Shown here in pieces: positions 9,318-48,515 of a stretch of DNA of 64,000 nucleotides. Source of the stretch: an uncultured Planctomycetales bacterium (GTDB lineage Bacteria; Omnitrophota; Gorgyraeia; Zapsychrales; Fredricksoniimonadaceae); contig CAZOXU010000005.1 of assembly GCA_964583975.1 (NCBI GenBank), positions 2,034 through 66,033 of the forward strand, read 5' to 3'. The notes beneath the pieces are model-generated. The model was given only the letters and a program-made list of their open reading frames with translations. It had not been told where the DNA came from and made no database searches. Position 1 is the first letter of the stretch, and every line of letters starts with the position of its first letter. The translations under genes were made by a program, and so were the position numbers.

Positions 9318-10159
9318 TAGGGAAACAATCTGGGTATTTGTTCGATGATATCACTGGCAATTAAAGAAGTTTTTGATCCTTGTCGAACGGCTAAATCCCC
9401 TGCCTTGCCATGGTCGTAAACACCCCACCGAGCTGCTTCGAAAGCTTCTATTCCCTGCGCCAAGAACGCAGCAATCATTCCTGTTAGAACATCACCGCTT
9501 CCTGCGGTGGCCATACCGACATTCCCGGTTGGATTGATGATAATTTTAGAAGGCGCTGCAATGATCGTATGGTGTCCTTTAAGGACAAGCACACAATGAT
9601 ACTGATGCGTAAATTCCCGAGCCACTGTCTTACGGTTTTCTTCAATATATTTAGCACTCTTGCCTATAAGTCGAGACATTTCTCCAACATGAGGAGTTAA
9701 TATCCGTGGCCCTTTAGCTTTAGCTAAACACCTGAGATTGGCAGCCAAGGTATTTAAGGCATCGGCATCAATGACCATCGGGCCAGGATAATGTTCTACT
9801 ATCTTATAAACAAAAGCACAGGTACTATGATTTAGCCCTAACCCAGGACCAAGAGCTATAGCATTAAATTTCGAATAGATTCTTTTTAAAACATCAAAAG
9901 CTTTAAGAGAAATGGTCCCCTGAGTCGTCTCTGGCAAGCTTACAGTCATTACAACATTAGAGATTTTCTTTTGTAGGGTAAGATTAAGGCTTCGAGCCAC
10001 GCCAGCACTCACCATGCCTGCCCCGCAACGCATTGCAGATAAAGAACACAAGGCTGCAGCACCGAGCATATTGGGTGAACCAGCTATGACCAAAACATGG
10101 CCAAAGTCTTTTTTATTTAAACGAGGATTACGGCGTGACAATACAGAAGGCCGTGGCAT
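9317..10159 (-). CDS. nnrD: NAD(P)H-hydrate dehydratase (YjeF C-terminal carbohydrate-kinase domain)
   Basis: 280 aa with HVLVIAGSPNMLGAAALC and GSGDVLTGMIAAFLAQG, the typical YjeF-C motifs. Confidence 0.8.
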   Translation of the reverse strand: MPRPSVLSRRNPRLNKKDFGHVLVIAGSPNMLGAAALCSLSAMRCGAGMVSAGVARSLNLTLQKKISNVVMTVSLPETTQGTISLKAFDVLKRIYSKFNAIALGPGLGLNHSTCAFVYKIVEHYPGPMVIDADALNTLAANLRCLAKAKGPRILTPHVGEMSRLIGKSAKYIEENRKTVAREFTHQYHCVLVLKGHHTIIAAPSKIIINPTGNVGMATAGSGDVLTGMIAAFLAQGIEAFEAARWGVYDHGKAGDLAVRQGSKTSLIASDIIEQIPRLFP

Positions 10160-10475
10160 AGTCTTTAGAATGGGAAATGGAAATTAAAATTTGATTTTTA
10201 AAACTCTTGAGTCGGTGTCGGCAAACTGGTTTGCCATGTTTGTCATTTACAATACTCACATCCTGAAATGACAATTTAGGATCACCCACTGCTTTAAAAA
10301 TAGCCTCTTTGGCAGCAAAGCGCCCTGCGTAATGGGCAAACGGATAACGATAACGCTTGGCATTGAGAATCTCTTCGCGGGTCAGAATGTGCTTTAAGAA
10401 ATCTTCACCCCAACGCTCAACCGCTTTTTTAATGCGATCAATTTCAACAATATCCGTACCAATGCCTAGAATCAT
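10128..10475 (-). CDS. acpS: Holo-[acyl-carrier-protein] synthase
   Basis: 115 aa starting MILGIGTDIVEIDRIKKA, the canonical AcpS N-terminus. It overlaps both pdxJ and nnrD. Confidence 0.85.
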   Translation of the reverse strand: MILGIGTDIVEIDRIKKAVERWGEDFLKHILTREEILNAKRYRYPFAHYAGRFAAKEAIFKAVGDPKLSFQDVSIVNDKHGKPVCRHRLKSFKNQILISISHSKDYATAFCIVTP

Positions 10476-11197
10476 CGCTTAATAAGTCCTAACATTTCTC
10501 TGACAGCCTGCTTTAAACCTACAAATACTGCTCTGGAAATAATCGAATGACCTATATTTAATTCCTGCATTCCAGGGATGGCAGCAATCTTCGAAACATT
10601 GTGATAATTCAATCCATGTCCTGCATGAACGATCAATCCCAATTTTTGAGCATAGGCAGCCATGGTCTTCATTCGAACTAGCTCTTTGGCGTCTCTACGA
10701 TTCTCAAAAGCTTTGGCATACGCACCTGTATGTAATTCAATCATCGGCACGCCAAGGCCTTTGGCTGCATCAATCTGGCGTTTATCGGGTGCAATAAAAA
10801 GACTGACATCAATACCCTTATTTTGGAAACCATCACACACAGGGCCTAATTGTCTGCGCAAAGCCACCACATCCAAGCCACCTTCGGTGGTGATTTCCTG
10901 ACGTCTTTCGGGTACCAAGGTCACCTGGTCTGGCTTGACCCCTAAAGCCACCTTAACCACATCCTTAGCGATCGACATTTCTAAATTAAATCTGGTTTTG
11001 ACGGATTTGCGAAGCATAACCACATCCACATCTTGAATATGGCGACGATCTTCTCTTAAATGAGCGACTATGCTATGAACCTTCTGTTGTTCGCAAATAC
11101 GAGCTGCAAGGATGGGATCTGGATCGGTTTCTCTTCGAGCTTGACGCAAAGTTGCTACATGATCTATGTTAACTCCGAGCTTAGGCATCTTATCCAT
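10472..11197 (-). CDS. pdxJ: Pyridoxine 5'-phosphate synthase
   Basis: 241 aa starting MPKLGVNIDHVATLRQARR and carrying HLREDRRHIQDVD; PdxJ is unmistakable. Confidence 0.9.
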   Translation of the reverse strand: MDKMPKLGVNIDHVATLRQARRETDPDPILAARICEQQKVHSIVAHLREDRRHIQDVDVVMLRKSVKTRFNLEMSIAKDVVKVALGVKPDQVTLVPERRQEITTEGGLDVVALRRQLGPVCDGFQNKGIDVSLFIAPDKRQIDAAKGLGVPMIELHTGAYAKAFENRRDAKELVRMKTMAAYAQKLGLIVHAGHGLNYHNVSKIAAIPGMQELNIGHSIISRAVFVGLKQAVREMLGLIKR

Positions 11198-11282
11198 TCT
11201 TGACGTATAACCATGTAATCACAGCCAGCGCCAGAGCAACCAATTTATAAAGCAAATTAGAGTTAAACCATGTTTTCATATG

Positions 11283-12050
11283 TTATGCTTTCGCAGATGG
11301 ATTAAAGAATTCTTCCAGTAAGGTCACAAAATGTTTCTGGTCCTCAATCTTGATTAAGCGACCTTCAAAAACAATACTGATATCAGAAGTTTCCTCCGAA
11401 ACCAAGGCAATCACTGCATCGGTATGTTCACTTAAGCCCAAGGCTGCACGATGTCTTGTGCCAACCGTTTTACTCACTGTTGGATTTTCAGAAAGTGGGA
11501 ACAAACAAGATGAGGCTGCTATGCGTTCACCCCGCACAACTACCCCCCCATCATGTAAAGGAGACTGGATCATAAAAATACTCTGTAAAAGTGCTGAAGA
11601 AATCTTTGAATCAAGGGGTACGCCACTTTCAATATACATGTTTAATTTCATTTCACGTTCGATAGCAATCAAACAGCCAGTCTTACGGCTAGAAAGCTTA
11701 AAGACGGCATCAGCAATCTCATCAATCAAAGCTTTTAATTCAATCTCTCCTAAAGAAACGCTAAACAAATGTTGTTGTCCCAGCCGAGCTAGCCCAGAAC
11801 GTAATTCATGCTGAAAGATAACTACAATGACAATAATCCAAATCGAAAAGAAATTTCTTAAAAGCCAATTAAGGACTTGAAAATCAAAAATCTGCGACAA
11901 TAAAAGGGCAATAATTAAATAAGCAATCCCCTTAAGCACCTGAAAAGCACGTGTTCCTTGAAAGAATAATAAAATACGGTAGAAAACAAACCAAAGGATG
12001 GCAATTTCAAGAACAGGTTTAACAAATTCTATAAAAGGGAGATTCGACAT
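11283..12050 (-). CDS. cdaA: Diadenylate cyclase (c-di-AMP synthase, DAC domain) with N-terminal TM helices
   Basis: 255 aa. It has 2-3 N-terminal TM helices followed by a DAC domain containing HDGGVVVRGERIAAS and GTRHRAALGLSEHTDAVIALVSEETSDISIV (the DGA and TRHRAA motifs). Confidence 0.8.
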   Translation of the reverse strand: MSNLPFIEFVKPVLEIAILWFVFYRILLFFQGTRAFQVLKGIAYLIIALLLSQIFDFQVLNWLLRNFFSIWIIVIVVIFQHELRSGLARLGQQHLFSVSLGEIELKALIDEIADAVFKLSSRKTGCLIAIEREMKLNMYIESGVPLDSKISSALLQSIFMIQSPLHDGGVVVRGERIAASSCLFPLSENPTVSKTVGTRHRAALGLSEHTDAVIALVSEETSDISIVFEGRLIKIEDQKHFVTLLEEFFNPSAKA

Positions 12051-37106: not shown

Positions 37107-40100
37107 TTAAATCTTTGCTAATGCTTGCGCTTCTTTACTGATTCCAAGTAATGGAAATGGGCTTAGGATGGGTGCGATATCGATAATGACAGGTGAAAAA
37201 CCTTGAAACTCTCCTTGAAGCAATTCATCGAGTTGGGCTGGATCAAAATCAACCTTAATCGTCTTGCCAGTACGATTAATATTAATTTGATTTAAATCAA
37301 TACCACCTAGATCTTGTGATTTATTAGATCGGTTAAGCATTGCTTGATCATTTCCTTCATATAGTTGAGATTCTTCGCCATAACGAATACCCCTTAAAGC
37401 ATCTTCATACATTTGCTTACGTCTTAACCATTCTAAAGCCCCACTTGCTCGATTATGAGCTTCAACTAAATCCATTTCGGGCGTTGATTTACTTAAGAAC
37501 ATAATATCAATCAACTCTTTAGCCTTGATTACCTCATTAGAATTAAATGATTGCAAAAACCAAACAAGCGCCTTGACCAACATTTCTTCCCTAATATTGT
37601 GAGCCACCCTACGTTCATTTAAATCATCTATTGTCAAACTTTTCGAATTACCAATAAGATCCCGTGCAAACATTATGGTATCTGCCATTTGAGCTATCTC
37701 CCTAGCAGTTGCTTTGGAAGGCAATAACGACTTAGCTACTTCAAAATCCGAGACATCATTAGAAGACATCGCCCTGTCATCCCCCATTGCACTATTAAGC
37801 TTATTAAATACTTTTTGCGCTTTAATATAGGCAATATTAATAGCTGTATAAATATCATTGTTAGATCTCCTATATCCATAAATCAAATAAATAATTTCTA
37901 TGGCCTTTAAAACTTCATCATTAATCTTTGAATCCAAAAACCTAAGAAGAGCTTTTACTAAATAAGTTTCATTTGTATCATAAACTTCTAATTTAGATTC
38001 TATGTCTTTCACGGATATAATTTGATCTTTAGAGTCTACCCATTCTCGGGCAAGTCTTAAGGCATTTCCAAACCTGTAAATATTCTGTGGATTATTTTCT
38101 AGAGGTAAAAAATCTTTAGCATAATCATAAAAAGCACCTAATGCATCATTCAAAGAGGGAATCTGGCCCAATTTCTTAATACGCAATGATTTAGTATCCC
38201 AAGGAACTATTTTCGAAGGCTCCCCCTCAACAGAAGAATCAATAGCTCTAGAAGCTTTCTGGTACATTGACCTTAATAATGCACTGCGCTCATCTTTCTT
38301 TGTTTCTAAATAAATGCCATAAATTAAAGATATGGCTCGTGATTTTTCATCATCATTTCCAAATCTTAAAAACCAATCCAAAGCAATGATTAACAAATTA
38401 CGATCAAACTTTGAAGCTTTAATATCTGAATCTATTTCTTCAATTGAAAAGTTTTTTTGTTCTCTAATATATCTGTGCGCCAGATTTAAAGCGTCTCCTA
38501 ATTGAGTTAATGGTATCTCTTTATACTTGTTATCTTGCTCTTGGATCTTTTGAGCTAACTCATAACCATTGAAAACTGTTGGAGATGTTGAATCTGATTT
38601 AGAATTCATAGCTTGATCTGCAGGCACGGTGGGCTCGCTGTCCCATATACGAATTGTTTCATCAACCTTACTCTGATCAATCCATCGATCCCACTTGCAG
38701 CTCATAAGCGCTTGGCGAATGGCCCCATCTCGATCTAATGGTTTTAATCTTAAAACATATTCTTGAATAATCAAACGAGCTTGTTCTCGTACTCGATTAA
38801 TTCTTTCATTTTGAGGATTCATGGAAGCAATCAAATAGGGTACCGATCTTTCTAACTCCACAACTGACATTGTTTTTAAACTCAACATGCGAACATGGTC
38901 ATTTTGCTCAACACCATTAAATCCATGATTATTTCTTTCATCCATATAGGCATGTTGTTCCAACAATTTCCAAAATTCTCCTTTATCAAGCAAGTCTTGT
39001 CGCAATGATAATATTAACAATGCCCCTTGTCGGGCTTTCGAATAATCTCTTCCTGTCGTAGATAGTATTTCTAACAAAGCTTGAACATTCAAATCCCTAT
39101 TCACTAAAGCTCTTGCCTTGTCTCTAATATTATTATTAGCATATTCATCAGGAAATTCTTGTGCCAGCTCTTTAGCTTCCGATGATAAAGCACCCTCTTT
39201 TATAATATCCTTAGCAACTCCTTTGTCTATACCTGCACCTGACTTCCCATCCCACAAACCTATAAATCTTCGAATCCTATCTTTATCAATTTTAAAATCA
39301 TCTACTAGCGCGCTACCAAACGCACTTCTAAAACGTCCCTGCCTATCTAATTCTCTAATTTCTGCAATATATTGAATGGCTATATCTATAACTACATTTC
39401 TCACCTCTACTGACAACTCACTCTTCCAATAAAATGATTCAACCAAATAAGGAATTGCTCTACGTAAATCTAAAGCGGCCATGGTTCTTAAACTTTGAAC
39501 CCTTACAAAATTATTTCGTTCAATGCCTTTAATCCTCATTGAATTATATTGATTTTCATACGCATGTTGCACCAAGTAAGGCCAAAGATCATCCTTTTTG
39601 ATTAAATCTTTACGTAATGTAAAAATAAACAAAACTGCTTCTCGAGCCGGAGCATATTTTCGATCTGTCGTTGCTAAAACCTCCAACAATACCTTTAACT
39701 CTAGCGTTCCTTGCACAATCTCCCGCGCCTTACTATAAATTTGCTCTCCTTTCCAATGACTTAGAAACTCATCGGCAAATGCTTGCGCTTCTAGTGACAA
39801 GACTGGCTTGGAATCTGGCTGGGAAGTCATAGCATGATCTGAAACATCTGGCATTGTTGCAGAAATATTAGCCCATCGATTTACTAATTCTAAGACCCTA
39901 TCTTTATCTATCCATTGATCATATTTATAGGACAATCTTAATTGTTTCAATAATTCACCTTCTGAATCTAATCTTATTATCCAATTAAGCTTACCAGATA
40001 TAATTCTCAATATTCTTGCACGAACATCTACTATTCTTTCATTTCTAGGGTTTAATGAATGAATTAAATACGGAATTGACCTTTTTAAATCCAGCTCAGC

Positions 40101-42170
40101 CATTGTTCTTATACTTTGTAATCGAACATAATTATTCTGTTCAATACCTGGAATTCTTTTATCATTTGTATCATCACGATAGGCATGTTCTTCAAGCAAT
40201 GGCCACAAGATTTTATTCGGAATTAAATTCTTTCGAATAGATAAAATGATTAAAACCGCCTGTCTAGCCCTAGAACATCTTGCTGTTCTTGTTGCTAAAA
40301 CTTCCAACAAAAGATCTTTCTCATAATACCTTTGAGATATATCTTGTGCCTTTTTAATAACATCTTGGACTAAAAAGCTTACTGGAAACTCCTCTACAAA
40401 TTTTCTAGCTCCTTCAGATAAATAATCATCTTCGTTTAACTGGGAAGTCATGGCGGAATCTTGTGATAGTTCTTGAGCAATTTGGAGAATTCGAGGTAAA
40501 TTTCGTTCTAATTTAAGTTGAATTTCTAAGACTTTCTCGGCCATTTCTTGAGTAAAACCACCATCAATTATAAATTTAGCCGCATCCCAAAGATTCACTA
40601 ATCCAGCATTATTATCTTCTAATTTAGGTCTATTTGGCATTCGTTGAATAATTTTATGCGCCCAATCTAATAAATTTCTTAATTTAGAATAATTACTAAA
40701 CTGATCTAAAACATTTCTTAATGTTTCTGCACCTTGATCTATATTAACTTTTTTATCTGTAATTTCTGAAATCTGAAGAAAAGCCAATTCAAAGCTTACA
40801 ATTGGTTCAATAATTAAATGATTAATCCCTGTAGAATTTAAATTAGCTTTTGATTGTAAATAGCCAAACAAGCCCTTGTGATAGACGTCTTTTATTTCTT
40901 CTATTAATTTCACACCCTCTTTCTGTAAATTATCTCTCTTTGCTTTAGAAATCATTGCTACATCTGTTGCAAAATTATTTACTAATTTCACCTGCAAAGA
41001 CATCATCGCCCCATCTGCTTTAATATCAGCCTGTCTTCCATTTCTTTCTACAGGAATCTTCATCAACGTCAGTCCACCAGAGAAATACTTCCGTGGTCCT
41101 GCTGATGCTGCACCAGATCCAACGTCAGTTGGATCTGGGTCCTTAATGTAATTAAACACACCCTTTTTATAGGCTTGCAGATAGCGCTCGTATATCTGTT
41201 GTTTTATCGCAGGGTCGTTAAGATTAACACCTGCCACCTTGTTCTTATTGGTATACACTGCATCTAAAAGACCATTTTGAATGGTTTCCTTGTACCATTT
41301 AGCTAAGATCAATGCATCGTAGATTTGACGAAGTGGGGCAAAGTTCTTTCCCTGATTGACTTCTTTGGTGATTTCGGGAATGACAATCTCACGGATGATT
41401 TGGCTTCCGATTTGATTGGATTCGCGTACGGGCGGGGTTTCCTCGCCCTTATTAGGGCTGGGTGACCCAGCCCGTACATTATTCTTTGACATCGCCAAAT
41501 AATCCTCATCCAACATGACCTTCAAGGTTGATTTGGTCACGTAGGCCGCTGGTGGAACATTTCCGCCAGAGGCGGATCGACCTGCGGCCGACTCATACAC
41601 CTGCGCTTGATCTGGTAGAATCCATACCTTGTTAAAAGTATTGACTGGAACATCCGTGGTGCCAAATTGCTCTTGGGCTTTTTTGTAGACTCTACTCCAA
41701 AACTCCTTGCCTAAATCCTTCTCTGGGTAAATCAGCGAGGCAGTCAATTGCTTAAGGATATAGTCTTGGGCTAATAGATCACGACCTAGCTCGGTTTCAC
41801 CTAAAGACTGGGTAGTCATGCGGTCTTTTTCATAAGGTGAAAGATTGACCCATAAATCACCTTCTGGGATGGTTAGGCCAGCTAAGAAGTACTTCACTAA
41901 TCTTTCTGCCTCTTCTTGATTAGGGCTGCTAGCTGCCCCTACCGAGCCAGTGTCTACGATAAATTGAAATTCCAGAGGTTTCTGGGGATTAACAATAATA
42001 CCTTTTAAAGCTAGGGGTGTAAAAGCTGCTGATGGCCCTACCATGACTCCTGGCTCGGGCAGCTGTAGTAGGGGCACGGCATGCCGTGCTCCTACATCCG
42101 CATAGGAATACTGTAAGTTGCTGCAAATAAATGACATGCAGACTATAGAAGAAATCAAACGTTTGAACAT
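37107..42170 (-). CDS. Giant secreted modular protein (1687 aa): signal peptide, conserved N-terminal module, 3 x ~200-aa HEAT-like tandem repeats, further helical modules, conserved C-terminal ~75-aa module
   Basis: The signal peptide is MFKRLISSIVCMSFICSNLQYSYA. The N-terminal 365 aa and the last 75 aa are clearly homologous to the partial ORF at 60607..64000. Three internal repeats share ATTxRxYxxARxAxLxIxxLRxxLxxxxxWxxLxxHAYxxxxNxxxIxGxExNxxVRxQSxRTMAxLDLxRxIPYL. Confidence 0.85.
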   Translation of the reverse strand: MFKRLISSIVCMSFICSNLQYSYADVGARHAVPLLQLPEPGVMVGPSAAFTPLALKGIIVNPQKPLEFQFIVDTGSVGAASSPNQEEAERLVKYFLAGLTIPEGDLWVNLSPYEKDRMTTQSLGETELGRDLLAQDYILKQLTASLIYPEKDLGKEFWSRVYKKAQEQFGTTDVPVNTFNKVWILPDQAQVYESAAGRSASGGNVPPAAYVTKSTLKVMLDEDYLAMSKNNVRAGSPSPNKGEETPPVRESNQIGSQIIREIVIPEITKEVNQGKNFAPLRQIYDALILAKWYKETIQNGLLDAVYTNKNKVAGVNLNDPAIKQQIYERYLQAYKKGVFNYIKDPDPTDVGSGAASAGPRKYFSGGLTLMKIPVERNGRQADIKADGAMMSLQVKLVNNFATDVAMISKAKRDNLQKEGVKLIEEIKDVYHKGLFGYLQSKANLNSTGINHLIIEPIVSFELAFLQISEITDKKVNIDQGAETLRNVLDQFSNYSKLRNLLDWAHKIIQRMPNRPKLEDNNAGLVNLWDAAKFIIDGGFTQEMAEKVLEIQLKLERNLPRILQIAQELSQDSAMTSQLNEDDYLSEGARKFVEEFPVSFLVQDVIKKAQDISQRYYEKDLLLEVLATRTARCSRARQAVLIILSIRKNLIPNKILWPLLEEHAYRDDTNDKRIPGIEQNNYVRLQSIRTMAELDLKRSIPYLIHSLNPRNERIVDVRARILRIISGKLNWIIRLDSEGELLKQLRLSYKYDQWIDKDRVLELVNRWANISATMPDVSDHAMTSQPDSKPVLSLEAQAFADEFLSHWKGEQIYSKAREIVQGTLELKVLLEVLATTDRKYAPAREAVLFIFTLRKDLIKKDDLWPYLVQHAYENQYNSMRIKGIERNNFVRVQSLRTMAALDLRRAIPYLVESFYWKSELSVEVRNVVIDIAIQYIAEIRELDRQGRFRSAFGSALVDDFKIDKDRIRRFIGLWDGKSGAGIDKGVAKDIIKEGALSSEAKELAQEFPDEYANNNIRDKARALVNRDLNVQALLEILSTTGRDYSKARQGALLILSLRQDLLDKGEFWKLLEQHAYMDERNNHGFNGVEQNDHVRMLSLKTMSVVELERSVPYLIASMNPQNERINRVREQARLIIQEYVLRLKPLDRDGAIRQALMSCKWDRWIDQSKVDETIRIWDSEPTVPADQAMNSKSDSTSPTVFNGYELAQKIQEQDNKYKEIPLTQLGDALNLAHRYIREQKNFSIEEIDSDIKASKFDRNLLIIALDWFLRFGNDDEKSRAISLIYGIYLETKKDERSALLRSMYQKASRAIDSSVEGEPSKIVPWDTKSLRIKKLGQIPSLNDALGAFYDYAKDFLPLENNPQNIYRFGNALRLAREWVDSKDQIISVKDIESKLEVYDTNETYLVKALLRFLDSKINDEVLKAIEIIYLIYGYRRSNNDIYTAINIAYIKAQKVFNKLNSAMGDDRAMSSNDVSDFEVAKSLLPSKATAREIAQMADTIMFARDLIGNSKSLTIDDLNERRVAHNIREEMLVKALVWFLQSFNSNEVIKAKELIDIMFLSKSTPEMDLVEAHNRASGALEWLRRKQMYEDALRGIRYGEESQLYEGNDQAMLNRSNKSQDLGGIDLNQININRTGKTIKVDFDPAQLDELLQGEFQGFSPVIIDIAPILSPFPLLGISKEAQALAKI
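38600..40450 (-). repeat. Three divergent tandem coding repeats (~600 nt / ~200 aa each) inside the giant gene
   Basis: Protein-level alignment of three consecutive segments beginning ...FVEEFPVSFLVQDVIKKAQ, ...FADEFLSHWKGEQIYSKAR and ...LAQEFPDEYANNNIRDKAR; each continues with LLEVLATxxRxYxxAR...HAY...NER...W(I/D)xKDR. DNA-level identity is low, so the duplication is old. Coordinates are approximate. Confidence 0.6.
41424..41478. repeat. GC-rich nested palindromic mini-element embedded in-frame in the giant ORF
   Basis: gtacgggcggggtttcctcgcccttattagggctgggtgacccagcccgtac. The outer arms gtacgggc/gcccgtac are perfect. The inner hairpin gggctgggtgacccagccc is nearly identical to an intergenic copy at 59262-59284. 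It encodes the low-complexity linker AGSPSPNKGEETPPVRE. Confidence 0.55.
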
Positions 42171-42239: not shown

Positions 42240-42920
42240 CTACTCTTCGAGAATGGTTTCCATCATGGCTTCGAGTTTGCCGAAACGCTCTTTGTAATCA
42301 ATACGTGAACGACGGATGACTTCAATCGCCTCTTCACGCCCATAAACATGCGTAATTTCACAGGCACGCTCTTCAGATCCAGGAAGATCTTTGTAGGTTA
42401 AAAAGTAGTGCTTGAGCCTATCAATAAATGCGCGAGGACAATCTTCAATATTATTCCAAGCACTATAAAGACCGTCACCTTGCATCACCGCAATGATTTT
42501 ATCGTCAGCCTGGCCTCCATCGATCATGCGAAACCCTCCGATGGGAATTGCTCGAATAATAATATCGCCATGGCTAATGACCTTCTCGGTTAGGATACAA
42601 ATGTCTAATGGATCATCATCCCCAATTATACCTTCTCGATTGGTACGTTCCGAACAAAGTTCTGCTACTTTTTGAGAACAGTAGGTTTGAGGAATAAACC
42701 CATAAAGCGTTGGACAAATGCTAGAATATTTCTGTGGCCTATCGACCTTCAAAAAACCACTTTTTTTATCAATTTCATACTTAACTGTATCAGAAGGAAC
42801 GGTCTCAACGTAGGTATTGACGATTTGAGGAGCATCTTCCCCAATAGGCACACCATGCCAGGGATGGGAACGCAACAAAAGCGCCATGGATTGCCAGATA
42901 TCTTTTAAATCATCAGTCAT
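42240..42920 (-). CDS. ppa: Inorganic pyrophosphatase (family I, soluble)
   Basis: 226 aa with HPWHGVPIG, YVETVPSDTVKYEIDKKSG and DDDPLDICIL, the family I PPase signature regions. Confidence 0.9.
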   Translation of the reverse strand: MTDDLKDIWQSMALLLRSHPWHGVPIGEDAPQIVNTYVETVPSDTVKYEIDKKSGFLKVDRPQKYSSICPTLYGFIPQTYCSQKVAELCSERTNREGIIGDDDPLDICILTEKVISHGDIIIRAIPIGGFRMIDGGQADDKIIAVMQGDGLYSAWNNIEDCPRAFIDRLKHYFLTYKDLPGSEERACEITHVYGREEAIEVIRRSRIDYKERFGKLEAMMETILEE

Positions 42921-43041
42921 AATAAAGTCCTTACAAATAAAAGGGTTACACGTTTAAAGACGCTTTAGTATAGCCAAGTTCAAAAGAATTTCAAGAGTAT
43001 ATTATTCTTGCCTTTAACGGCCCATAGTTTATACTATCTAT

Positions 43042-44877
43042 ATGATTAAAAACACATCCATTCATACATTTCACGTTCCAGTCATGGGAACAGCCTTCAC
43101 CATTGATAGCCCTGTTAAGGTGGCTAAATATGGGATCCATTCTGTCATATCCCTGGTGGACGATCATTTAATTGAAGAAATGCGTAAGTTTTATTGCACC
43201 AAATACGTCCAAGACTATACACCCATTACTAAATACGATGAAGATTACCGAGCCAGACGTATTACAGCCTATCTTGATCTCCTTGACTGGATTGTCCAGA
43301 AAGAATTTAATGCTGTCAAAAACTCCCAGTTTGTGCCAGGAAGCGAAATCACCAAATATTTCGAACTACTTCCTGATGATTCTGTACTAAAAGCAGCCTA
43401 TCACCACATGCTCGAATGCCAAGATGAAAAAGTCAAAGAAGGCCTCCAAAAGAACCTGCGCGAAGCGATGAAACCTGGCGATATTAACGTAAACATTATG
43501 ACCAAGTTAGATCGTGATAATTATGACTCTAAGGGCAATCTCTTGGCTCCTGAATTTTCTGATGGGCTCTCAGCCTTACGTGGTTATGCCCAAAGCCGCT
43601 TAAAATCCTGTATCATCTTCTCAGCTGGTTTTAACCGTCGTCTTTATGGTTATATTGAAAACTTCAAAGATTTCTATGCAGATGCCACGGGTGAGATCAA
43701 AAAGAAAATCATTTTAAAGGTCAGCGATTTTCGCTCCACCCTGATTCAAGGCAAATTCTTGGCCAAAAAAGGCCTGTGGGTTTCTGAGTATCGCATTGAA
43801 TCTGGTCTTAATTGTGGCGGACACGCCTTTGCAACCGATGGTTATCTCATGGGCCCTATCATGGAAGAATTTAAAACCAAACGCCAAACGCTTATTGATG
43901 ATCTGCACAAAATTTGTAATGAAGCCTTGAAAATTAAAAACCGTTTAACAACCATCCAGCCTCATAGCGTTAGAATCACCGCTCAAGGTGGTATTGGTAA
44001 TTACAAAGAAGATTCATTTCTTCGTAAACATTACAATCTTGATGGTACAGGTTGGGGCACTCCTTTCTTGCTGTGCCCAGAAGTCACCAACGTTGATCCG
44101 GTGACCATGGAAAAACTATCAAAAGCAACCGAGAAAGATGTATATTTGAGCCCCGTTTCTCCTCTTGGCGTGCCTTTTAATAATTTGCGTGATTCTTTAA
44201 GTGATCTCGAGCGTGATATGCGCGTCATGCGCGGCCGTCCAGGCAGTGCTTGCCCTAAAAGCTATTTAGTTTCAAATACCGAATTTACTCAGCAACCTAT
44301 TTGTACAGCCAGCCGTCAATATCAAAAATTGAAATTAGAACAGTTAGCTTCTTTAAATCTCGAGCAACAAGAATACAAAAAACAATTTGAGAAGATTATT
44401 GTGAAATCTTGCATTTGTAATGATCTTGGTGAATCTGTATTAATGAATAATAAGGTCCCTACTCCTATCAATCGCTTTCCGGCTGTTTGCCCAGGGCCAA
44501 ATATTGCCTACTTTTCTAAAATTGTATCGCTCAAAGAAATGGCTGACCATATCTATGGACGTATTAATATCCTAAATAACACCTATAGACCGCATATGTT
44601 CATCAAAGAATTACGTATGTATGTGGATTATCTGCGTAGTGACGTCGTCAAATCACTTGACTCATTAAGCGATCAGAAAACTAAATATTTCGGAGAGTTT
44701 AGAAATAATCTGCTAGAGGGAATTGAATACTACCGCAAACTATTTCCACAAATGACTGATGAGAGCGTAGAATTTCGTAGTAAGATGATTAATGAACTCG
44801 AAGAGTGCAGAACAAATCTTTTAAATCTTTGCCAAGAACACGCCACAGCCTTCTCACCTGCTCTAGCGCAAGTCTAA
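43042..44877 (+). CDS. Unassigned 611-aa protein; central region resembles an FMN-type TIM barrel (nitronate monooxygenase / FabK / IMPDH-like) with extra N- and C-terminal domains
   Basis: ESGLNCGGHAFATDGY parallels the QGxEAGGH catalytic His motif of NMO/FabK, and ITAQGGIGNYKED parallels the (A/S)GGI FMN phosphate-binding motif. The remaining ~300 aa are unassigned. A TATACT box lies 6 nt before the ATG and there is no SD. Confidence 0.55.
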   Translation: MIKNTSIHTFHVPVMGTAFTIDSPVKVAKYGIHSVISLVDDHLIEEMRKFYCTKYVQDYTPITKYDEDYRARRITAYLDLLDWIVQKEFNAVKNSQFVPGSEITKYFELLPDDSVLKAAYHHMLECQDEKVKEGLQKNLREAMKPGDINVNIMTKLDRDNYDSKGNLLAPEFSDGLSALRGYAQSRLKSCIIFSAGFNRRLYGYIENFKDFYADATGEIKKKIILKVSDFRSTLIQGKFLAKKGLWVSEYRIESGLNCGGHAFATDGYLMGPIMEEFKTKRQTLIDDLHKICNEALKIKNRLTTIQPHSVRITAQGGIGNYKEDSFLRKHYNLDGTGWGTPFLLCPEVTNVDPVTMEKLSKATEKDVYLSPVSPLGVPFNNLRDSLSDLERDMRVMRGRPGSACPKSYLVSNTEFTQQPICTASRQYQKLKLEQLASLNLEQQEYKKQFEKIIVKSCICNDLGESVLMNNKVPTPINRFPAVCPGPNIAYFSKIVSLKEMADHIYGRINILNNTYRPHMFIKELRMYVDYLRSDVVKSLDSLSDQKTKYFGEFRNNLLEGIEYYRKLFPQMTDESVEFRSKMINELEECRTNLLNLCQEHATAFSPALAQV

Positions 44878-44883
44878 AACTGA

Positions 44884-46368
44884 TTAACCTAAAAATCCTC
44901 TGGCTGAACCTGCACGTGTAATAAGGTCAGTTAAATGAACGCCAAAATTCTTCTTTTGAACATTCTCGATAAGTTCACTCGAAACCTCTAGATGCTCCTT
45001 ATTGGTCTCAAATTCATATCTTTTAACCACAGATTGCAGTTGTTTTCTTAAGCTTGCAGGGACCAAACTTAACACTTCAGGGTTCCATAGGCTTAAAGTA
45101 TCTTGAAGATTGTCTTCAAATTGAGCATAGGTGCGTTGAATAAATTGAAAATCCTCATCACTCAGAGCGTTTAAACCAATAATATCGGGTGGAAGACCTA
45201 AACTGTATAAAACGGCGCAAAATGAAATAACGCGCGGCAGGGTCACTCCCTTTTTCAATTCACGAGAATATCCAAACAATCCTGTATGTAATTTTCTCAT
45301 ACGGCGAGCTGGGACAAATTTAGAGACCTCGTTGATTAGCGGAGCCAAGATTTGAATTTGGCGTTGGTATTCTTTAGACACCTTCTCAATAATCTTAAGT
45401 GCACGCTTTTCATCTTCAATACGAACTGGCGGCTGGGCTGAAGTCTGATTGATCATGGCAATTGCCTTTTGGACTTCTTGAACAGAAAAATCATACTTAA
45501 AGGCCGATTGAATCGTAAAAGTCGCCACACTAGGATATTTATTTAAAACATTTTGAACCGTTCGCGGGTTTAAATGTCCACGAAAAGGAGCGCTACCTGC
45601 CCCTAAAATAGGATAAATAGCTACCCCGGTTTCTTCTTGTAGATCATAAAGCCTTTGCAAAGCAATTTGCAAAGCCAAAATAACAGCCACGGAAGAATGG
45701 TTCATGGCTGGATCGGAACGAGCCAAGAAAACGCGCTGATGCTTGGCCTTGTTTTGTTTTAAGAATACTCTGAGCGTTTGATCAGCTGATAACATCGAAG
45801 AGACATCTTCAAACAACGGAATTACATTGATAGTCTTAGGATTAAAATCTCCGATCCACTGCCCTACCGTCAATCGCTTGTGATCCATAAAATTATGGTT
45901 TTCTTTACCAATGACAACGTTCTTATAGTAATAGTAAATCTTTTCAATGATCTTGGCATCAGCCATAGGAACAATGACTTCAAAAATTGGAGGATTTTTA
46001 CCATCGCCATAAAAAGCACGAGCCGTATCATAAGAACGAGGAATACTTTCTAAAGTCTCTAAAAGGATCTTAGCTTCAGCTTTTTCATAATCTGGATTAG
46101 GAACACGAATGGTAATAAACACATCCTTGCCCATGCGTTTCTCTTGGAAGAAGTTCTTATGTTCGGTGATTAATTTACGAATAACAAAATCGTCAGCCTC
46201 TTTGCCTTCAGAATCCCACATAATTTCTTCAACGCCAAGGTTGGAGAATGCATAAAAAGCCTCCTTGATTTCATCATCACCACGTAACACAGAATGATTA
46301 GCAAAAAATGGAATGGTGACGTTATCAGGATGCTGTGTGGACATGGTTCGAGGTATTTTGATATTCAT
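44884..46368 (-). CDS. Archaeal-type phosphoenolpyruvate carboxylase (PepcA family)
   Basis: 494 aa. The N-terminus MNIKIPRTMSTQHPDN carries the PRxMSTQHPDN hallmark of the short archaeal-type PEPC family, and the length is about 500 aa rather than 900 aa. Confidence 0.8.
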   Translation of the reverse strand: MNIKIPRTMSTQHPDNVTIPFFANHSVLRGDDEIKEAFYAFSNLGVEEIMWDSEGKEADDFVIRKLITEHKNFFQEKRMGKDVFITIRVPNPDYEKAEAKILLETLESIPRSYDTARAFYGDGKNPPIFEVIVPMADAKIIEKIYYYYKNVVIGKENHNFMDHKRLTVGQWIGDFNPKTINVIPLFEDVSSMLSADQTLRVFLKQNKAKHQRVFLARSDPAMNHSSVAVILALQIALQRLYDLQEETGVAIYPILGAGSAPFRGHLNPRTVQNVLNKYPSVATFTIQSAFKYDFSVQEVQKAIAMINQTSAQPPVRIEDEKRALKIIEKVSKEYQRQIQILAPLINEVSKFVPARRMRKLHTGLFGYSRELKKGVTLPRVISFCAVLYSLGLPPDIIGLNALSDEDFQFIQRTYAQFEDNLQDTLSLWNPEVLSLVPASLRKQLQSVVKRYEFETNKEHLEVSSELIENVQKKNFGVHLTDLITRAGSARGFLG

Positions 46369-46391: not shown

Positions 46392-48176
<1,785 letters not shown>

Positions 48177-48515
48177 TTAACTAAACGAGGTGCCGCAACC
48201 GCAGCTTGATTTAGCATTGGGGTTTTTATATTTAAAACCACTCTCTTTTAAAGTGTCTACGTAATCGACTTCAATACCTTTTAAAAACTCTAAGCTTTCT
48301 TGATTCACAATCACGGTCAAACCCTTATGTTGATAGACAATATCATTATCGTAAGGGTTTTTCTGAAATTTCATCTCATAGGATAAACCAGCACATCCGC
48401 CTGTGGTAACCCCCAGGCGTAAAGCATAGCCATCCTTGCCTTCTTTTTTCATCATAGAAAGGATTTTTTCGACGGCTGAATCAGTTAATGTGGCAACAGG
48501 TGTTGTTGTACTCAT
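48177..48515 (-). CDS. Iron-sulfur cluster insertion protein (IscA/ErpA/HesB family)
   Basis: 112 aa with GGCAGLSYEM and the C-terminal SCGCGTSF, which supplies the three conserved Cys. Confidence 0.85.
   Translation of the reverse strand: MSTTTPVATLTDSAVEKILSMMKKEGKDGYALRLGVTTGGCAGLSYEMKFQKNPYDNDIVYQHKGLTVIVNQESLEFLKGIEVDYVDTLKESGFKYKNPNAKSSCGCGTSFS

What the first reader, a model, noticed from the sequence alone, without database searches (positions are those of the whole stretch)
43042..44877. Unassigned 611-aa protein with an NMO/FabK-like FMN TIM-barrel core, divergently transcribed from ppa and convergent with archaeal-type PEPC
ESGLNCGGHAF and AQGGIG are only loosely reminiscent of FMN-dependent TIM barrels. 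About 300 additional residues match nothing I recognise, including the N-terminus HVPVMGTAFTIDSPVKVAKYGIHSVISLVDDHLIEEMRKFY and the Cys-containing C-terminal half. The gene appears leaderless, with TATACT 6 nt before the ATG and no SD. It lies in a pyrophosphate/PEP-centred metabolic neighbourhood.
Basis: partly seen in the sequence, partly recalled or inferred. Interest (0 to 1): 0.5.

Follow-up and report, generated by a model that had tools for sequence, protein, structure and literature searches.

The report
Uncharacterised long FabK/NMO-like flavoenzyme family
The gene encodes a well-conserved but unstudied 600-residue enzyme, found in hundreds of bacterial species, whose core is a flavin-binding barrel related to fatty-acid enoyl reductases; it carries an extra cysteine-rich module that probably holds an iron-sulfur cluster, and its substrate is unknown.

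Summary
It matches no Pfam, NCBIfam or PDB sequence model. It nevertheless belongs to a large, tightly conserved family: more than 8000 90%-identity clusters and at least 597 species genomes, spanning Omnitrophota, many cultured Bacteroidota, Ignavibacteria, Zixibacteria, Myxococcota-like bacteria and Desulfobacterota.

Three features are new:
- a ~90-aa helical insert;
- a Cys inside the catalytic loop (ESGLNCGGH);
- a C-terminal module with five near-invariant Cys, which is not the FabX motif, followed by a helical bundle.

Some members are fused to an NADPH diflavin (CPR-type) reductase. Others are fused or adjacent to a PlsB-like acyltransferase.

Best reading: an FMN plus probable Fe-S reductase fed by flavodoxin/ferredoxin-type donors, possibly acting on an acyl or lipid substrate. 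The ppa/PEPC neighbourhood is not conserved. The leaderless promoter is conserved. Novelty: a new variant of a known kind.

The parts
43008..43035 (+). Promoter-like element TTGCCT (43008-13), 16 nt spacer, TATACT (43030-35), ending 6 nt before the ATG. Implies a leaderless mRNA.
   Evidence: The same arrangement (TTGCnT, 16-17 nt, TATAnT, 6-8 nt, ATG, no SD) occurs in Omnitrophota loci L001, L002/3, L004, L005, L006, L014 and L018. The consensus scan alone is not above shuffles, so the cross-locus conservation is the evidence.
43042..44877 (+). CDS, 611 aa. Long-form NMO/FabK-superfamily flavoprotein of an uncharacterised family.
43042..43215 (+). aa 1-58: beta1-alpha1-beta2-alpha2 of the TIM barrel. 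IPVMG (aa 11-16) corresponds to the FabK IIQAGM FMN loop.
   Evidence: DSSP of the model. Colinear hhalign with the insert removed (weak, N-terminus alone E 0.31).
43216..43476 (+). aa 59-145: four-helix insert between alpha2 and beta3, absent from FabK/FabX/NMO.
   Evidence: Model secondary structure H69-93, H102-108, H115-125, H129-142. Removing it makes the FabK alignment colinear. Column conservation is moderate at 0.42.
43477..44076 (+). aa 146-345: beta3-beta8 of the barrel, carrying the FMN-binding and catalytic motifs.
43483..43500 (+). INVNIM (aa 148-153). N151 corresponds to FabK N69 and FabX N99, an FMN ligand.
   Evidence: hhalign. N151 is 98% conserved. FabX FMN contacts from PMC8626469.
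43615..43647 (+). IFSAGFNRRLY (aa 192-202; family consensus VFSAGxNPxL), aligned to the FabK VFTSAGNPKTW motif.
   Evidence: S194, A195 and G196 are >=94% conserved.
43798..43824 (+). ESGLNCGGH (aa 253-261): expanded version of the NMO/FabK E-A-G-G-H catalytic loop. H261 is the putative catalytic His (FabK H144 / FabX H182). C258 is an extra conserved Cys.
   Evidence: hhalign pairs GGH with GGH. H261 is 98% and C258 96% conserved across sequences 31-51% identical to the query. Role of the FabX/FabK His: PMC8626469.
43984..43998 (+). QGGIG (aa 315-319): beta7 FMN-phosphate loop, equivalent to FabK AAGGI.
   Evidence: Core of the significant hhalign segment. Q315, G316 and G317 are 96-98% conserved.
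44050..44067 (+). GWGTPF (aa 337-342): beta8 loop, equivalent to FabK IGSRF.
44077..44232 (+). aa 346-397: lid/linker segment containing invariant S373-P374.
44233..44595 (+). aa 398-518: Cys-rich module with C404 (44251-53), C421 (44302-04), C457 (44410-12), C459 (44416-18) and C483 (44488-90), plus H503. Proposed Fe-S (or other metal) site. Not an autonomous domain.
   Evidence: All five Cys are >=96% conserved. Two sit in C-P motifs (C404-P405, C483-P484). The segment is mostly loops with pLDDT 64-81 in the full model but <50 when folded alone. CPR-type reductase fusions imply a one-electron acceptor. Metal content was not tested.
44596..44874 (+). aa 519-611: three long helices forming a bundle. 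This is the least conserved part and gives spurious weak apolipoprotein A-I matches.

Best explanation
The gene encodes a soluble, stand-alone flavoenzyme of the NMO/FabK (NPD-like) TIM-barrel superfamily, in a previously undescribed long architecture.

Shown:
- The fold is an FMN-type barrel closest to FabX and FabK.
- The family's most conserved motifs align with the FMN-binding residues and the catalytic His of FabK and FabX.

Inferred:
- FMN sits in the barrel.
- H261, helped by the family-specific C258 in the same loop, does proton transfer at a carbon next to an activating group.
- The five conserved C-terminal cysteines hold an Fe-S cluster, most likely [4Fe-4S]. This cluster replaces the NAD(P)H site of FabK, as the unrelated Cys motif does in FabX. 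It wires the FMN to an external one-electron donor, flavodoxin or ferredoxin.
- In some Omnitrophota that donor is built in as a C-terminal NADPH-FAD-FMN (CPR-type) reductase. The chain would then be NADPH -> FAD -> FMN -> Fe-S -> barrel FMN -> substrate, so the enzyme works in the reductive direction.

Most tentative:
- The substrate is an acyl or enoyl thioester or a lipid acyl chain (C=C reduction). This rests on all the closest structures being fatty-acyl enoyl reductases or dehydrogenases, and on a myxobacterial-type clade that has a PlsB-like acyltransferase fused or adjacent.
For: - Fold: AF2 pLDDT 87.9, pTM 0.89.
- Foldseek: FabX E 4e-10, FabK 1e-7.
- Motif-level homology to a verified FabK: hhalign E 7e-4, colinear beta1-beta8 once the insert is removed.
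- Mapped FMN and His residues are >=94% conserved. FabX residue roles are taken from PMC8626469.
- Five C-terminal Cys are >=96% conserved across 31-51% identical sequences.
- The Cys module depends on the barrel to fold.
- The diflavin reductase fusion occurs in at least two Omnitrophota sequences and three assemblies. A flavin reductase lies directly upstream in L090.
- The acyltransferase is fused in P0152 and P0459 and adjacent in L086. A fatty-acid desaturase overlaps the start codon in L075.
- The protein is soluble, with no TM segment.
Against: - No cofactor was measured.
- The sequence-level link to NMO/FabK is weak: hhalign probability 25-27%, and no PF03060 hit even at E<=1.
They could bind Zn or be structural.
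- The Cys spacing (C-x16-C-x35-C-x-C-x23-C) matches neither FabX (CX3CX3CX11C) nor classic ferredoxin motifs.
- The acyltransferase link is confined to three species of one clade. The desaturase link is confined to 1-3 loci.
- Other loci point elsewhere: RIC, Rrf2, Hcp; QueD-like; NadA/NadB; tryptophanase; RNA-modification genes.
- A canonical FabK coexists in L034/L054, and true FabX orthologues exist in Bacteroidales (PMC11300592). The family is therefore not simply the missing FabK or FabX.
Confidence: 0.5

Rival explanations
1. It is a FabX-type acyl-ACP dehydrogenase/isomerase: an oxidative enzyme that introduces the double bond for unsaturated fatty-acid synthesis and passes electrons from FMN through Fe-S to an acceptor.
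Against: - Identity to FabX in the structural alignment is only 18%, whereas accepted orthologues are 36-40% identical.
- The FabX Cys motif is absent.
- Bacteroidales already have true FabX.
- The fusion to an NADPH-driven CPR module argues for electron input, not output.
Confidence: 0.1
2. It belongs to the nitrosative/oxidative-stress or Fe-S-homeostasis response. Possible roles include a nitronate or NO-related detoxifying flavoenzyme, or an NAD(P)H:quinone-type reductase like PA1024. The conserved Cys would act as a redox- or NO-sensitive cluster.
For: - RIC/YtfE (TIGR03652 above cut-off) is directly downstream in L075 and nearby in L050, L059, L152 and L160.
- Rrf2 regulators are adjacent or near in six loci.
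- A Crp/Fnr regulator lies 10 nt upstream in L059.
- Hcp is 4 kb away in L091.
- COX1-family genes occur in L024, L059 and L068.
- NMO and PA1024 are close structural relatives.
Against: These neighbours occur in fewer than 10% of loci, and only in some Bacteroidota. The Rrf2 proteins could not be typed as NsrR. In Omnitrophota the gene has a conserved constitutive-looking promoter and different neighbours. Class I NMO and PA1024 motifs were not examined.
Confidence: 0.12
3. The cysteines bind zinc or are purely structural, and the enzyme takes hydride directly from NAD(P)H like FabK and PA1024. The CPR fusion would be a lineage-specific curiosity.
For: The Cys spacing is atypical for Fe-S. 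Isolated beta-bridges at residues 412 and 420 flanking C404/C421 could be a zinc-knuckle-like hairpin. Most family members have no dedicated donor encoded nearby.
Against: CPR-type modules deliver single electrons to haem or Fe-S partners (established knowledge of P450 BM3, NOS and CysJ). That makes little sense for an enzyme with its own NAD(P)H site. The fusion is seen in several assemblies. The closest structure, FabX, uses Fe-S in place of the NAD(P)H motif.
Confidence: 0.18
4. It is an RNA-modifying reductase, functionally like dihydrouridine synthase or a third type of epoxyqueuosine reductase. The catalytic Cys/His would sit on an FMN barrel and the C-terminal helical domain would bind RNA.
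For: - A QueD/PTPS-like gene is directly downstream in Hymenobacteraceae and nearby in three more loci, seven in all.
- Pus10-like (L118, 5 nt downstream), THUMP methyltransferase (L015), RtcB overlapping the stop codon (L090) and RluA-type synthase (L086) are neighbours.
- Dus enzymes share the general plan of FMN barrel, Cys and helical domain (established knowledge).
Against: - No domain is basic: whole-protein pI is ~6.6 and the helical domain pI ~5.3, and that domain is the least conserved part.
- Each RNA-related neighbour is a one-off.
Confidence: 0.07
5. It functions with ppa and archaeal-type PEPC in pyrophosphate/PEP metabolism, as the first reader suggested from context.
For: It is adjacent to both genes in this window. 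ppa is also adjacent in L001.
Against: PEPC is absent next to the gene in the closest relatives (L001, L002, L003) and in all other loci. ppa is adjacent in only one. All three genes are in separate transcription units on opposing strands.
Confidence: 0.03

Closest known systems
FabX (HP0773; UfaA in Neisseria), acyl-ACP dehydrogenase/isomerase, PDB 7E1Q
   Different: - Identity is only 18%.
- FabX is 366 aa against 611 aa here.
- The FabX cluster motif CX3CX3CX11C is absent; the family has C-x16-C-x35-C-x-C-x23-C.
- This family adds a 90-aa helical insert, a Cys in the catalytic loop and a C-terminal helical bundle.
- The CPR fusion suggests reductive rather than oxidative turnover.
FabK, enoyl-ACP reductase II (e.g. 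PDB 4IQL, 2Z6I, 3BO9), Pfam PF03060 NMO
   Same: The barrel is the same. The motifs align in order: VNV, SAGNP, E..GGH, (A/Q)GGI, G(S/T)xF. The predicted chemistry is the same kind: FMN-mediated hydride transfer to or from a C=C next to a thioester.
   Different: There is no PF03060 hit and hhalign probability is only ~25%. FabK uses NAD(P)H directly and has no conserved Cys cluster. It is half the length. A genuine FabK coexists with a family member in the same Chitinophagaceae loci (L034, L054).
PfaD / DfnA-type trans-acting enoyl reductases and the fungal/mycobacterial FAS enoyl-reductase domain
   Different: These use NADPH directly and have no Cys cluster. They lie in PKS/PUFA/FAS contexts, whereas this gene is stand-alone.
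FadH 2,4-dienoyl-CoA reductase and other OYE-type FMN + [4Fe-4S] enzymes
   Same: The proposed electron path is the same: NADPH -> FAD -> [4Fe-4S] -> FMN -> enoyl substrate. This is most evident in the CPR-fused members.
Nitronate monooxygenase / PA1024 NADH:quinone reductase
   Different: There is no sequence-model match. The extra domains and the Cys module are absent from NMO and PA1024. No evidence exists for nitronate or quinone substrates.

Membership tests
NMO/FabK (NPD-like) FMN TIM-barrel superfamily | (beta/alpha)8 barrel structurally closest to NMO-family members | tested here: met
NMO/FabK (NPD-like) FMN TIM-barrel superfamily | Match to the family sequence model (Pfam PF03060 NMO) | tested here: not met
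   No PF03060 hit at E<=1 for the query, or at E<=0.1 for 66 members. No NCBIfam model matches. Profile against PDB sequences finds no NMO hit at E<=10.
NMO/FabK (NPD-like) FMN TIM-barrel superfamily | Catalytic His in the E-x-G-G-H loop after beta6 | tested here: met
   hhalign pairs ESGLNCGGH with EGFEAGGH. H261 is 98% conserved. The loop carries a 3-4 residue insertion (L-N-C).
NMO/FabK (NPD-like) FMN TIM-barrel superfamily | FMN-binding motifs (Asn on beta3, SAGNP, GG on beta7, G-S/T-x-F on beta8) | tested here: inconclusive
   All four align in order and are >=94% conserved. The alignment has only 25-27% probability, and FMN binding was not measured.
FabX (dehydrogenase/isomerase) | [4Fe-4S] ligated by C300/C304/C308/C320 (CX3CX3CX11C) in a C-terminal subdomain | tested here: not met
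   The family's conserved Cys are at 404, 421, 457, 459 and 483 with different spacing. FabX motif from PMC8626469.
FabX (dehydrogenase/isomerase) | Orthologue-level sequence identity (~36-40% to HP0773) and ~360 aa length | tested here: not met
FabX (dehydrogenase/isomerase) | ACP docking through the basic alpha7 helix; L-shaped acyl tunnel | not testable with these tools
FabK (enoyl-ACP reductase II) | NAD(P)H-binding motif / direct pyridine-nucleotide use | not tested
   Only indirect evidence: the CPR fusion suggests an external one-electron donor instead.
FMN + Fe-S flavoenzymes (generic) | Four spatially clustered Cys ligands within electron-transfer distance of FMN | not testable with these tools
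   Five invariant Cys exist, but their 3D geometry could not be read from the model and metal content is unknown.

The most novel reading that the evidence does not exclude
The family is a hitherto unrecognised ferredoxin/flavodoxin-dependent FMN-[4Fe-4S] ene-reductase acting on fatty-acyl chains (acyl-ACP/CoA or glycerolipid-bound). It would represent an undescribed step of lipid metabolism shared by Omnitrophota, the FCB group, Myxococcota and Desulfobacterota, with a new type of cluster-binding module grafted onto the FabK/FabX barrel.
Probability: 0.2. Interest if true: 0.75.

Novelty: new variant of a known kind. Interest (0 to 1): 0.55.

Why it matters
This is a true "conserved hypothetical". 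It is about 50% identical across phyla and present in at least 597 species genomes, including many cultivable Bacteroidota. No family model, paper or experiment covers it.

Placing it in the FabK/FabX/NMO superfamily, with a distinct Cys module and natural fusions to an NADPH diflavin reductase, turns it into a directly testable enzyme. The self-sufficient fusion protein can be screened for substrates by NADPH consumption.

If the lipid link holds, the work would reveal a new redox step in bacterial lipid metabolism and a second, independently evolved Fe-S module on this barrel. At minimum it justifies a new Pfam/NCBIfam model and better annotation of thousands of genes.

Tried and rejected
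- **Sequence searches with the protein and two profiles.** Pfam, NCBIfam and PDB returned only spurious apolipoprotein A-I and helical hits caused by the C-terminal helices.
- **Folding the C-terminal 266 aa alone for a domain-level fold search.** The model was poor (pLDDT 55.7), so I ran no fold search on it. The result shows the Cys region is not autonomous.
- **The afdb50 fold library** was unavailable.
- **Gene-neighbourhood analysis over 171 loci**. Only Omnitrophota-specific synteny recurs: TrxB, OFOR, BioB divergent from the target, then ThiC and IscA convergent. I rejected ppa/PEPC as functional partners.
- **Themes considered and left as weak leads.** NO/Fe-S stress (RIC, Rrf2, Hcp, COX1-like); Trp/NAD (tryptophanase, TDO, KMO, NadA/NadB); pterin/queuosine (QueD-like); RNA modification (Pus10, THUMP, RtcB); chorismate synthase.
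- **The 651-aa ORF upstream of the fusion gene in L084** is not a paralogue.
- **No FabX-like sequence was found in the DNA I held**, so residue mapping to FabX went through FabK.
- **Literature searches** by topic, by sequence motif and by accession found nothing on this family.
- **Charge and hydropathy profiling** found no basic or membrane segment.
Full report
**Observation.** The ORF at 43042..44877 (+) is present exactly as described: ATG start, 611 aa, with the quoted N-terminus. ESGLNCGGHAF is at aa 253-263 and AQGGIG at aa 314-319. The neighbours are as stated. Inorganic pyrophosphatase is divergent (42240..42920, -; PF00719 2.7e-42; NF001886 5e-97). Archaeal-type PEPC is convergent (44884..46368, -; PF14010 7e-178; TIGR02751 3.5e-171). 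ThiC follows. The protein has no Pfam, NCBIfam or PDB sequence match. Only weak apolipoprotein-like hits to its C-terminal helices appear.

**A real, large and isolated family.** A search of 5.8 billion proteins hit the 8000-candidate ceiling. The best 120 are 65-81% identical over the full length, none has a Pfam domain on record, and all named ones are "hypothetical protein", mostly Omnitrophica. An exhaustive profile search of 1.84 billion 50%-identity representatives found 1383 proteins at E<=1e-3 and 367 at E<=1e-30. The family is therefore sizeable but does not bleed into the very large FMN-barrel families.

They include Omnitrophota, many cultured Bacteroidota (Pontibacter, Nibribacter, Adhaeribacter, Runella, Dyadobacter, Pedobacter, Gillisia, Maribacter, Aquirufa), Ignavibacteria/Melioribacteraceae, Zixibacteria, Calditrichia, Sumerlaeota, Desulfobacterota and Acidobacteriota, all at 50-58% identity to the query. 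Later searches added Polyangiaceae-type and Elusimicrobia members.

Exact look-ups show nearly all records are "hypothetical protein". Three RefSeq entries are named "nitronate monooxygenase family protein". I found no paper by topic, by sequence motif or by accession.

**Fold.** AlphaFold2 on a 66-sequence alignment gave pLDDT 87.9 and pTM 0.89, with eight alternating strands and helices.

| Search | Hit | Score |
|---|---|---|
| Foldseek | FabX | E 4e-10 |
| | FabK | E 1e-7 |
| | PfaD | E 8e-7 |

**Sequence-level correspondence.** A canonical FabK happened to lie in loci L034 and L054 (GFEAGGHNG; 4iql E 9e-120). I built a FabK profile from it and compared profiles. hhalign gives E 7.5e-4 and probability 25%. 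Its core pairs query 309-371 (ITAQGGIG...GTGWGTPFLLCPE) with FabK 164-224 (VIAAGGIATG...GVQIGSRFVASPE).

With permissive settings the alignment pairs these motifs in order:

| This family | FabK |
|---|---|
| INVNIM | FGVNVP |
| VFSAGxNPxL | VFTSAGNPKTW |
| ESGLNCGGH | EGFEAGGH |

With the helical insert removed, the alignment is colinear from beta1 (IPVMG to IIQAGM) through beta8.

The FabX paper lists N99, E175, S179/G180, G220/G221 and Q240-T243 as FMN contacts. It names H182 as the catalytic His, conserved in FabK (PMC8626469). The aligned family residues are N151, E249/E253, S254-G255, G316-G317, T340 and H261. All are >=94% conserved among sequences only 31-51% identical to the query. 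The statistics are weak, but the motif order, the conservation and the fold agree.

**What is new in the architecture.**
- (i) A ~90-aa four-helix insert (aa ~59-145) lies between alpha2 and beta3.
- (ii) The catalytic loop carries a 3-4 residue insertion with a 96%-conserved Cys (C258) three residues before H261.
- (iii) After the barrel comes a loop-rich segment (aa ~398-518) with five near-invariant Cys. C404, C421 and C459 are 100% conserved, C457 98% and C483 96%. Two lie in C-P motifs.
- (iv) Three long helices (519-599) follow. They are the least conserved part and explain the apolipoprotein noise.

Folded alone, aa 346-611 gives a poor model (pLDDT 55.7), with the Cys loops below 50. 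In the full-length model the same loops score 64-81. The Cys module therefore packs on the barrel rather than forming an independent domain.

The Cys spacing differs from FabX's CX3CX3CX11C. If it is an Fe-S site, it arose independently. I could not read coordinates, so the spatial clustering of the Cys remains untested.

**Fusions.** Three longer architectures exist.
- P0121 (1167 aa; three cluster members from different assemblies) and the ORF L015:8010-11516 (1168 aa) append Flavodoxin_1 + FAD_binding_1 + NAD_binding_1. This is a CPR/CysJ-type NADPH diflavin reductase.
- P0152 (981 aa, two contigs) and P0459 (1051 aa, 69% identical to P0152) append a PF01553 acyltransferase that is weakly PlsB-like. 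In the unfused relative P0461 the same acyltransferase lies 189 nt downstream on the same strand (L086).
- P0132 carries an N-terminal TetR, which may be a merged gene call.

From established knowledge, CPR-type modules deliver single electrons from NADPH to haem or Fe-S partners. This favours a one-electron entry port, the Cys module, and a reductive direction. A PF01613 flavin reductase lies directly upstream in L090.

**Genomic context.** In Omnitrophota the order is conserved: TrxB, OFOR-beta, OFOR-alpha, BioB divergent from the target, then ThiC and IscA-like convergent. In this window ppa plus a giant ORF replace BioB upstream, and PEPC is inserted before ThiC. PEPC is absent next to the gene in the nearest relatives (L001 at 81% identity, L002 and L003). 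The PPi/PEP idea is therefore not supported.

I clustered ORFs from 171 loci: GTDB genomes, metagenomes and look-ups. No neighbour occurs in more than ~9% of them, and those that do are the Omnitrophota synteny. The gene is essentially monocistronic.

Lineage-specific neighbours include:
- RIC/YtfE (5 loci), Rrf2 regulators (6), Crp/Fnr, Hcp and COX1-family genes;
- a QueD/PTPS-like gene directly downstream in Hymenobacteraceae (7 loci in all);
- tryptophanase (5), TDO-like (2), KMO-like, and NadA-NadB (2; NadA overlaps the stop codon in L065);
- fatty-acid desaturase (overlapping the start in L075; 3 loci);
- proline dehydrogenase, alanine racemase, chorismate synthase, Pus10-like, THUMP methyltransferase and RtcB.

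None is general. I treat them as weak leads.

A genuine FabK coexists in L034/L054, and gut Bacteroidales have true FabX orthologues (PMC11300592). The family is therefore not simply a replacement for either.

**Mechanism proposed.**
- Shown: NMO/FabK-type barrel; conservation of the residues that bind FMN and of the catalytic His; five invariant Cys; natural fusion to an NADPH diflavin reductase; soluble protein.
- Inferred: FMN in the barrel; an Fe-S cluster in the Cys module wiring FMN to flavodoxin, ferredoxin or CPR; reductive catalysis with H261/C258 as the proton relay.
- Tentative: an acyl or enoyl thioester or lipid substrate.

Rivals and their refutation tests are listed separately. 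They are a FabX-like dehydrogenase, an NO/nitronate-stress enzyme, Zn/structural Cys with direct NAD(P)H use, and an RNA-modifying reductase.

**Leaderless start.** TTGCCT (43008-13), a 16 nt spacer, TATACT (43030-35), 6 nt and then ATG, with no SD. The same layout occurs in L001, L002/3, L004, L005, L006, L014 and L018. This supports a conserved promoter abutting the start codon. The consensus scan alone is not above chance: 5 sites found against 5.9 expected.

**Verdict.** The fold interpretation is supported and the context interpretation is not. The protein is a new architectural variant of a known superfamily, widespread and uncharacterised, with clear experiments available. Interest is moderate to good (0.55). 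It would rise if the Fe-S/lipid reading proves right.

Noticed in passing
window 43008-43044; loci L001, L002, L004, L005, L006, L014, L018 upstream of the homologue: A conserved -35/-10 promoter ends 6-8 nt before the ATG with no Shine-Dalgarno sequence. This suggests leaderless translation of this gene across Omnitrophota.
   Followed up: partly
window 37107-42170 (-): A giant 1687-aa ORF with a signal-like N-terminus contains three tandem ~200-aa repeats (38-42% identical; 'LLE[VI]L[AS]T' at aa 620, 827 and 1031). Related Omnitrophota loci carry 760-2084-aa ORFs without Pfam hits in the same position (L002, L003, L006, L007).
   Followed up: partly
window 44884-46368 (-): Archaeal-type PEPC (PF14010/TIGR02751) is inserted between the target and ThiC only in this window. 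In the closest Omnitrophota relatives ThiC is directly convergent with the target, so PEPC looks like a local insertion.
   Followed up: partly
L015:8010-11516 (+); proteins P0121, P0455, P0456: Natural fusion of the family domain to a CPR/CysJ-type NADPH diflavin reductase (Flavodoxin_1 + FAD_binding_1 + NAD_binding_1) in Omnitrophota. This is a self-sufficient version that would suit substrate screening.
   Followed up: yes
L084:7107-10052, L085:4198-7143 (P0152); P0459; L086:8001-9956 and 10145-11452: In a Polyangiaceae-like clade the family domain is fused to, or directly followed by, a PF01553 PlsB-like acyltransferase.
   Followed up: yes
L034:14068-15006 (+), L054:13544-14497 (+): A canonical FabK (4iql E 9e-120) lies about 4 kb from the family member in two Chitinophagaceae genomes, so the two enzymes coexist.
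   Followed up: yes
L075:2618-11494; L059:99-14697; L065:7398-15270: Some Bacteroidota loci gather TDO-like, KMO-like, NadA/NadB, tryptophanase, RIC/YtfE, Rrf2, Crp and QueD-like genes around the family member. These may be stress- or NAD/tryptophan-related islands; their relevance is unclear.
   Followed up: partly
window 48177-48515 (-) and 46392-48158 (-): A HesB/IscA-type Fe-S assembly protein (PF01521 in the syntenic loci) sits immediately downstream of ThiC. This pairing is conserved across the Omnitrophota loci, where BioB and 2-oxoacid:ferredoxin oxidoreductase lie on the far side of the target gene, making the region rich in Fe-S enzymes.
   Followed up: no
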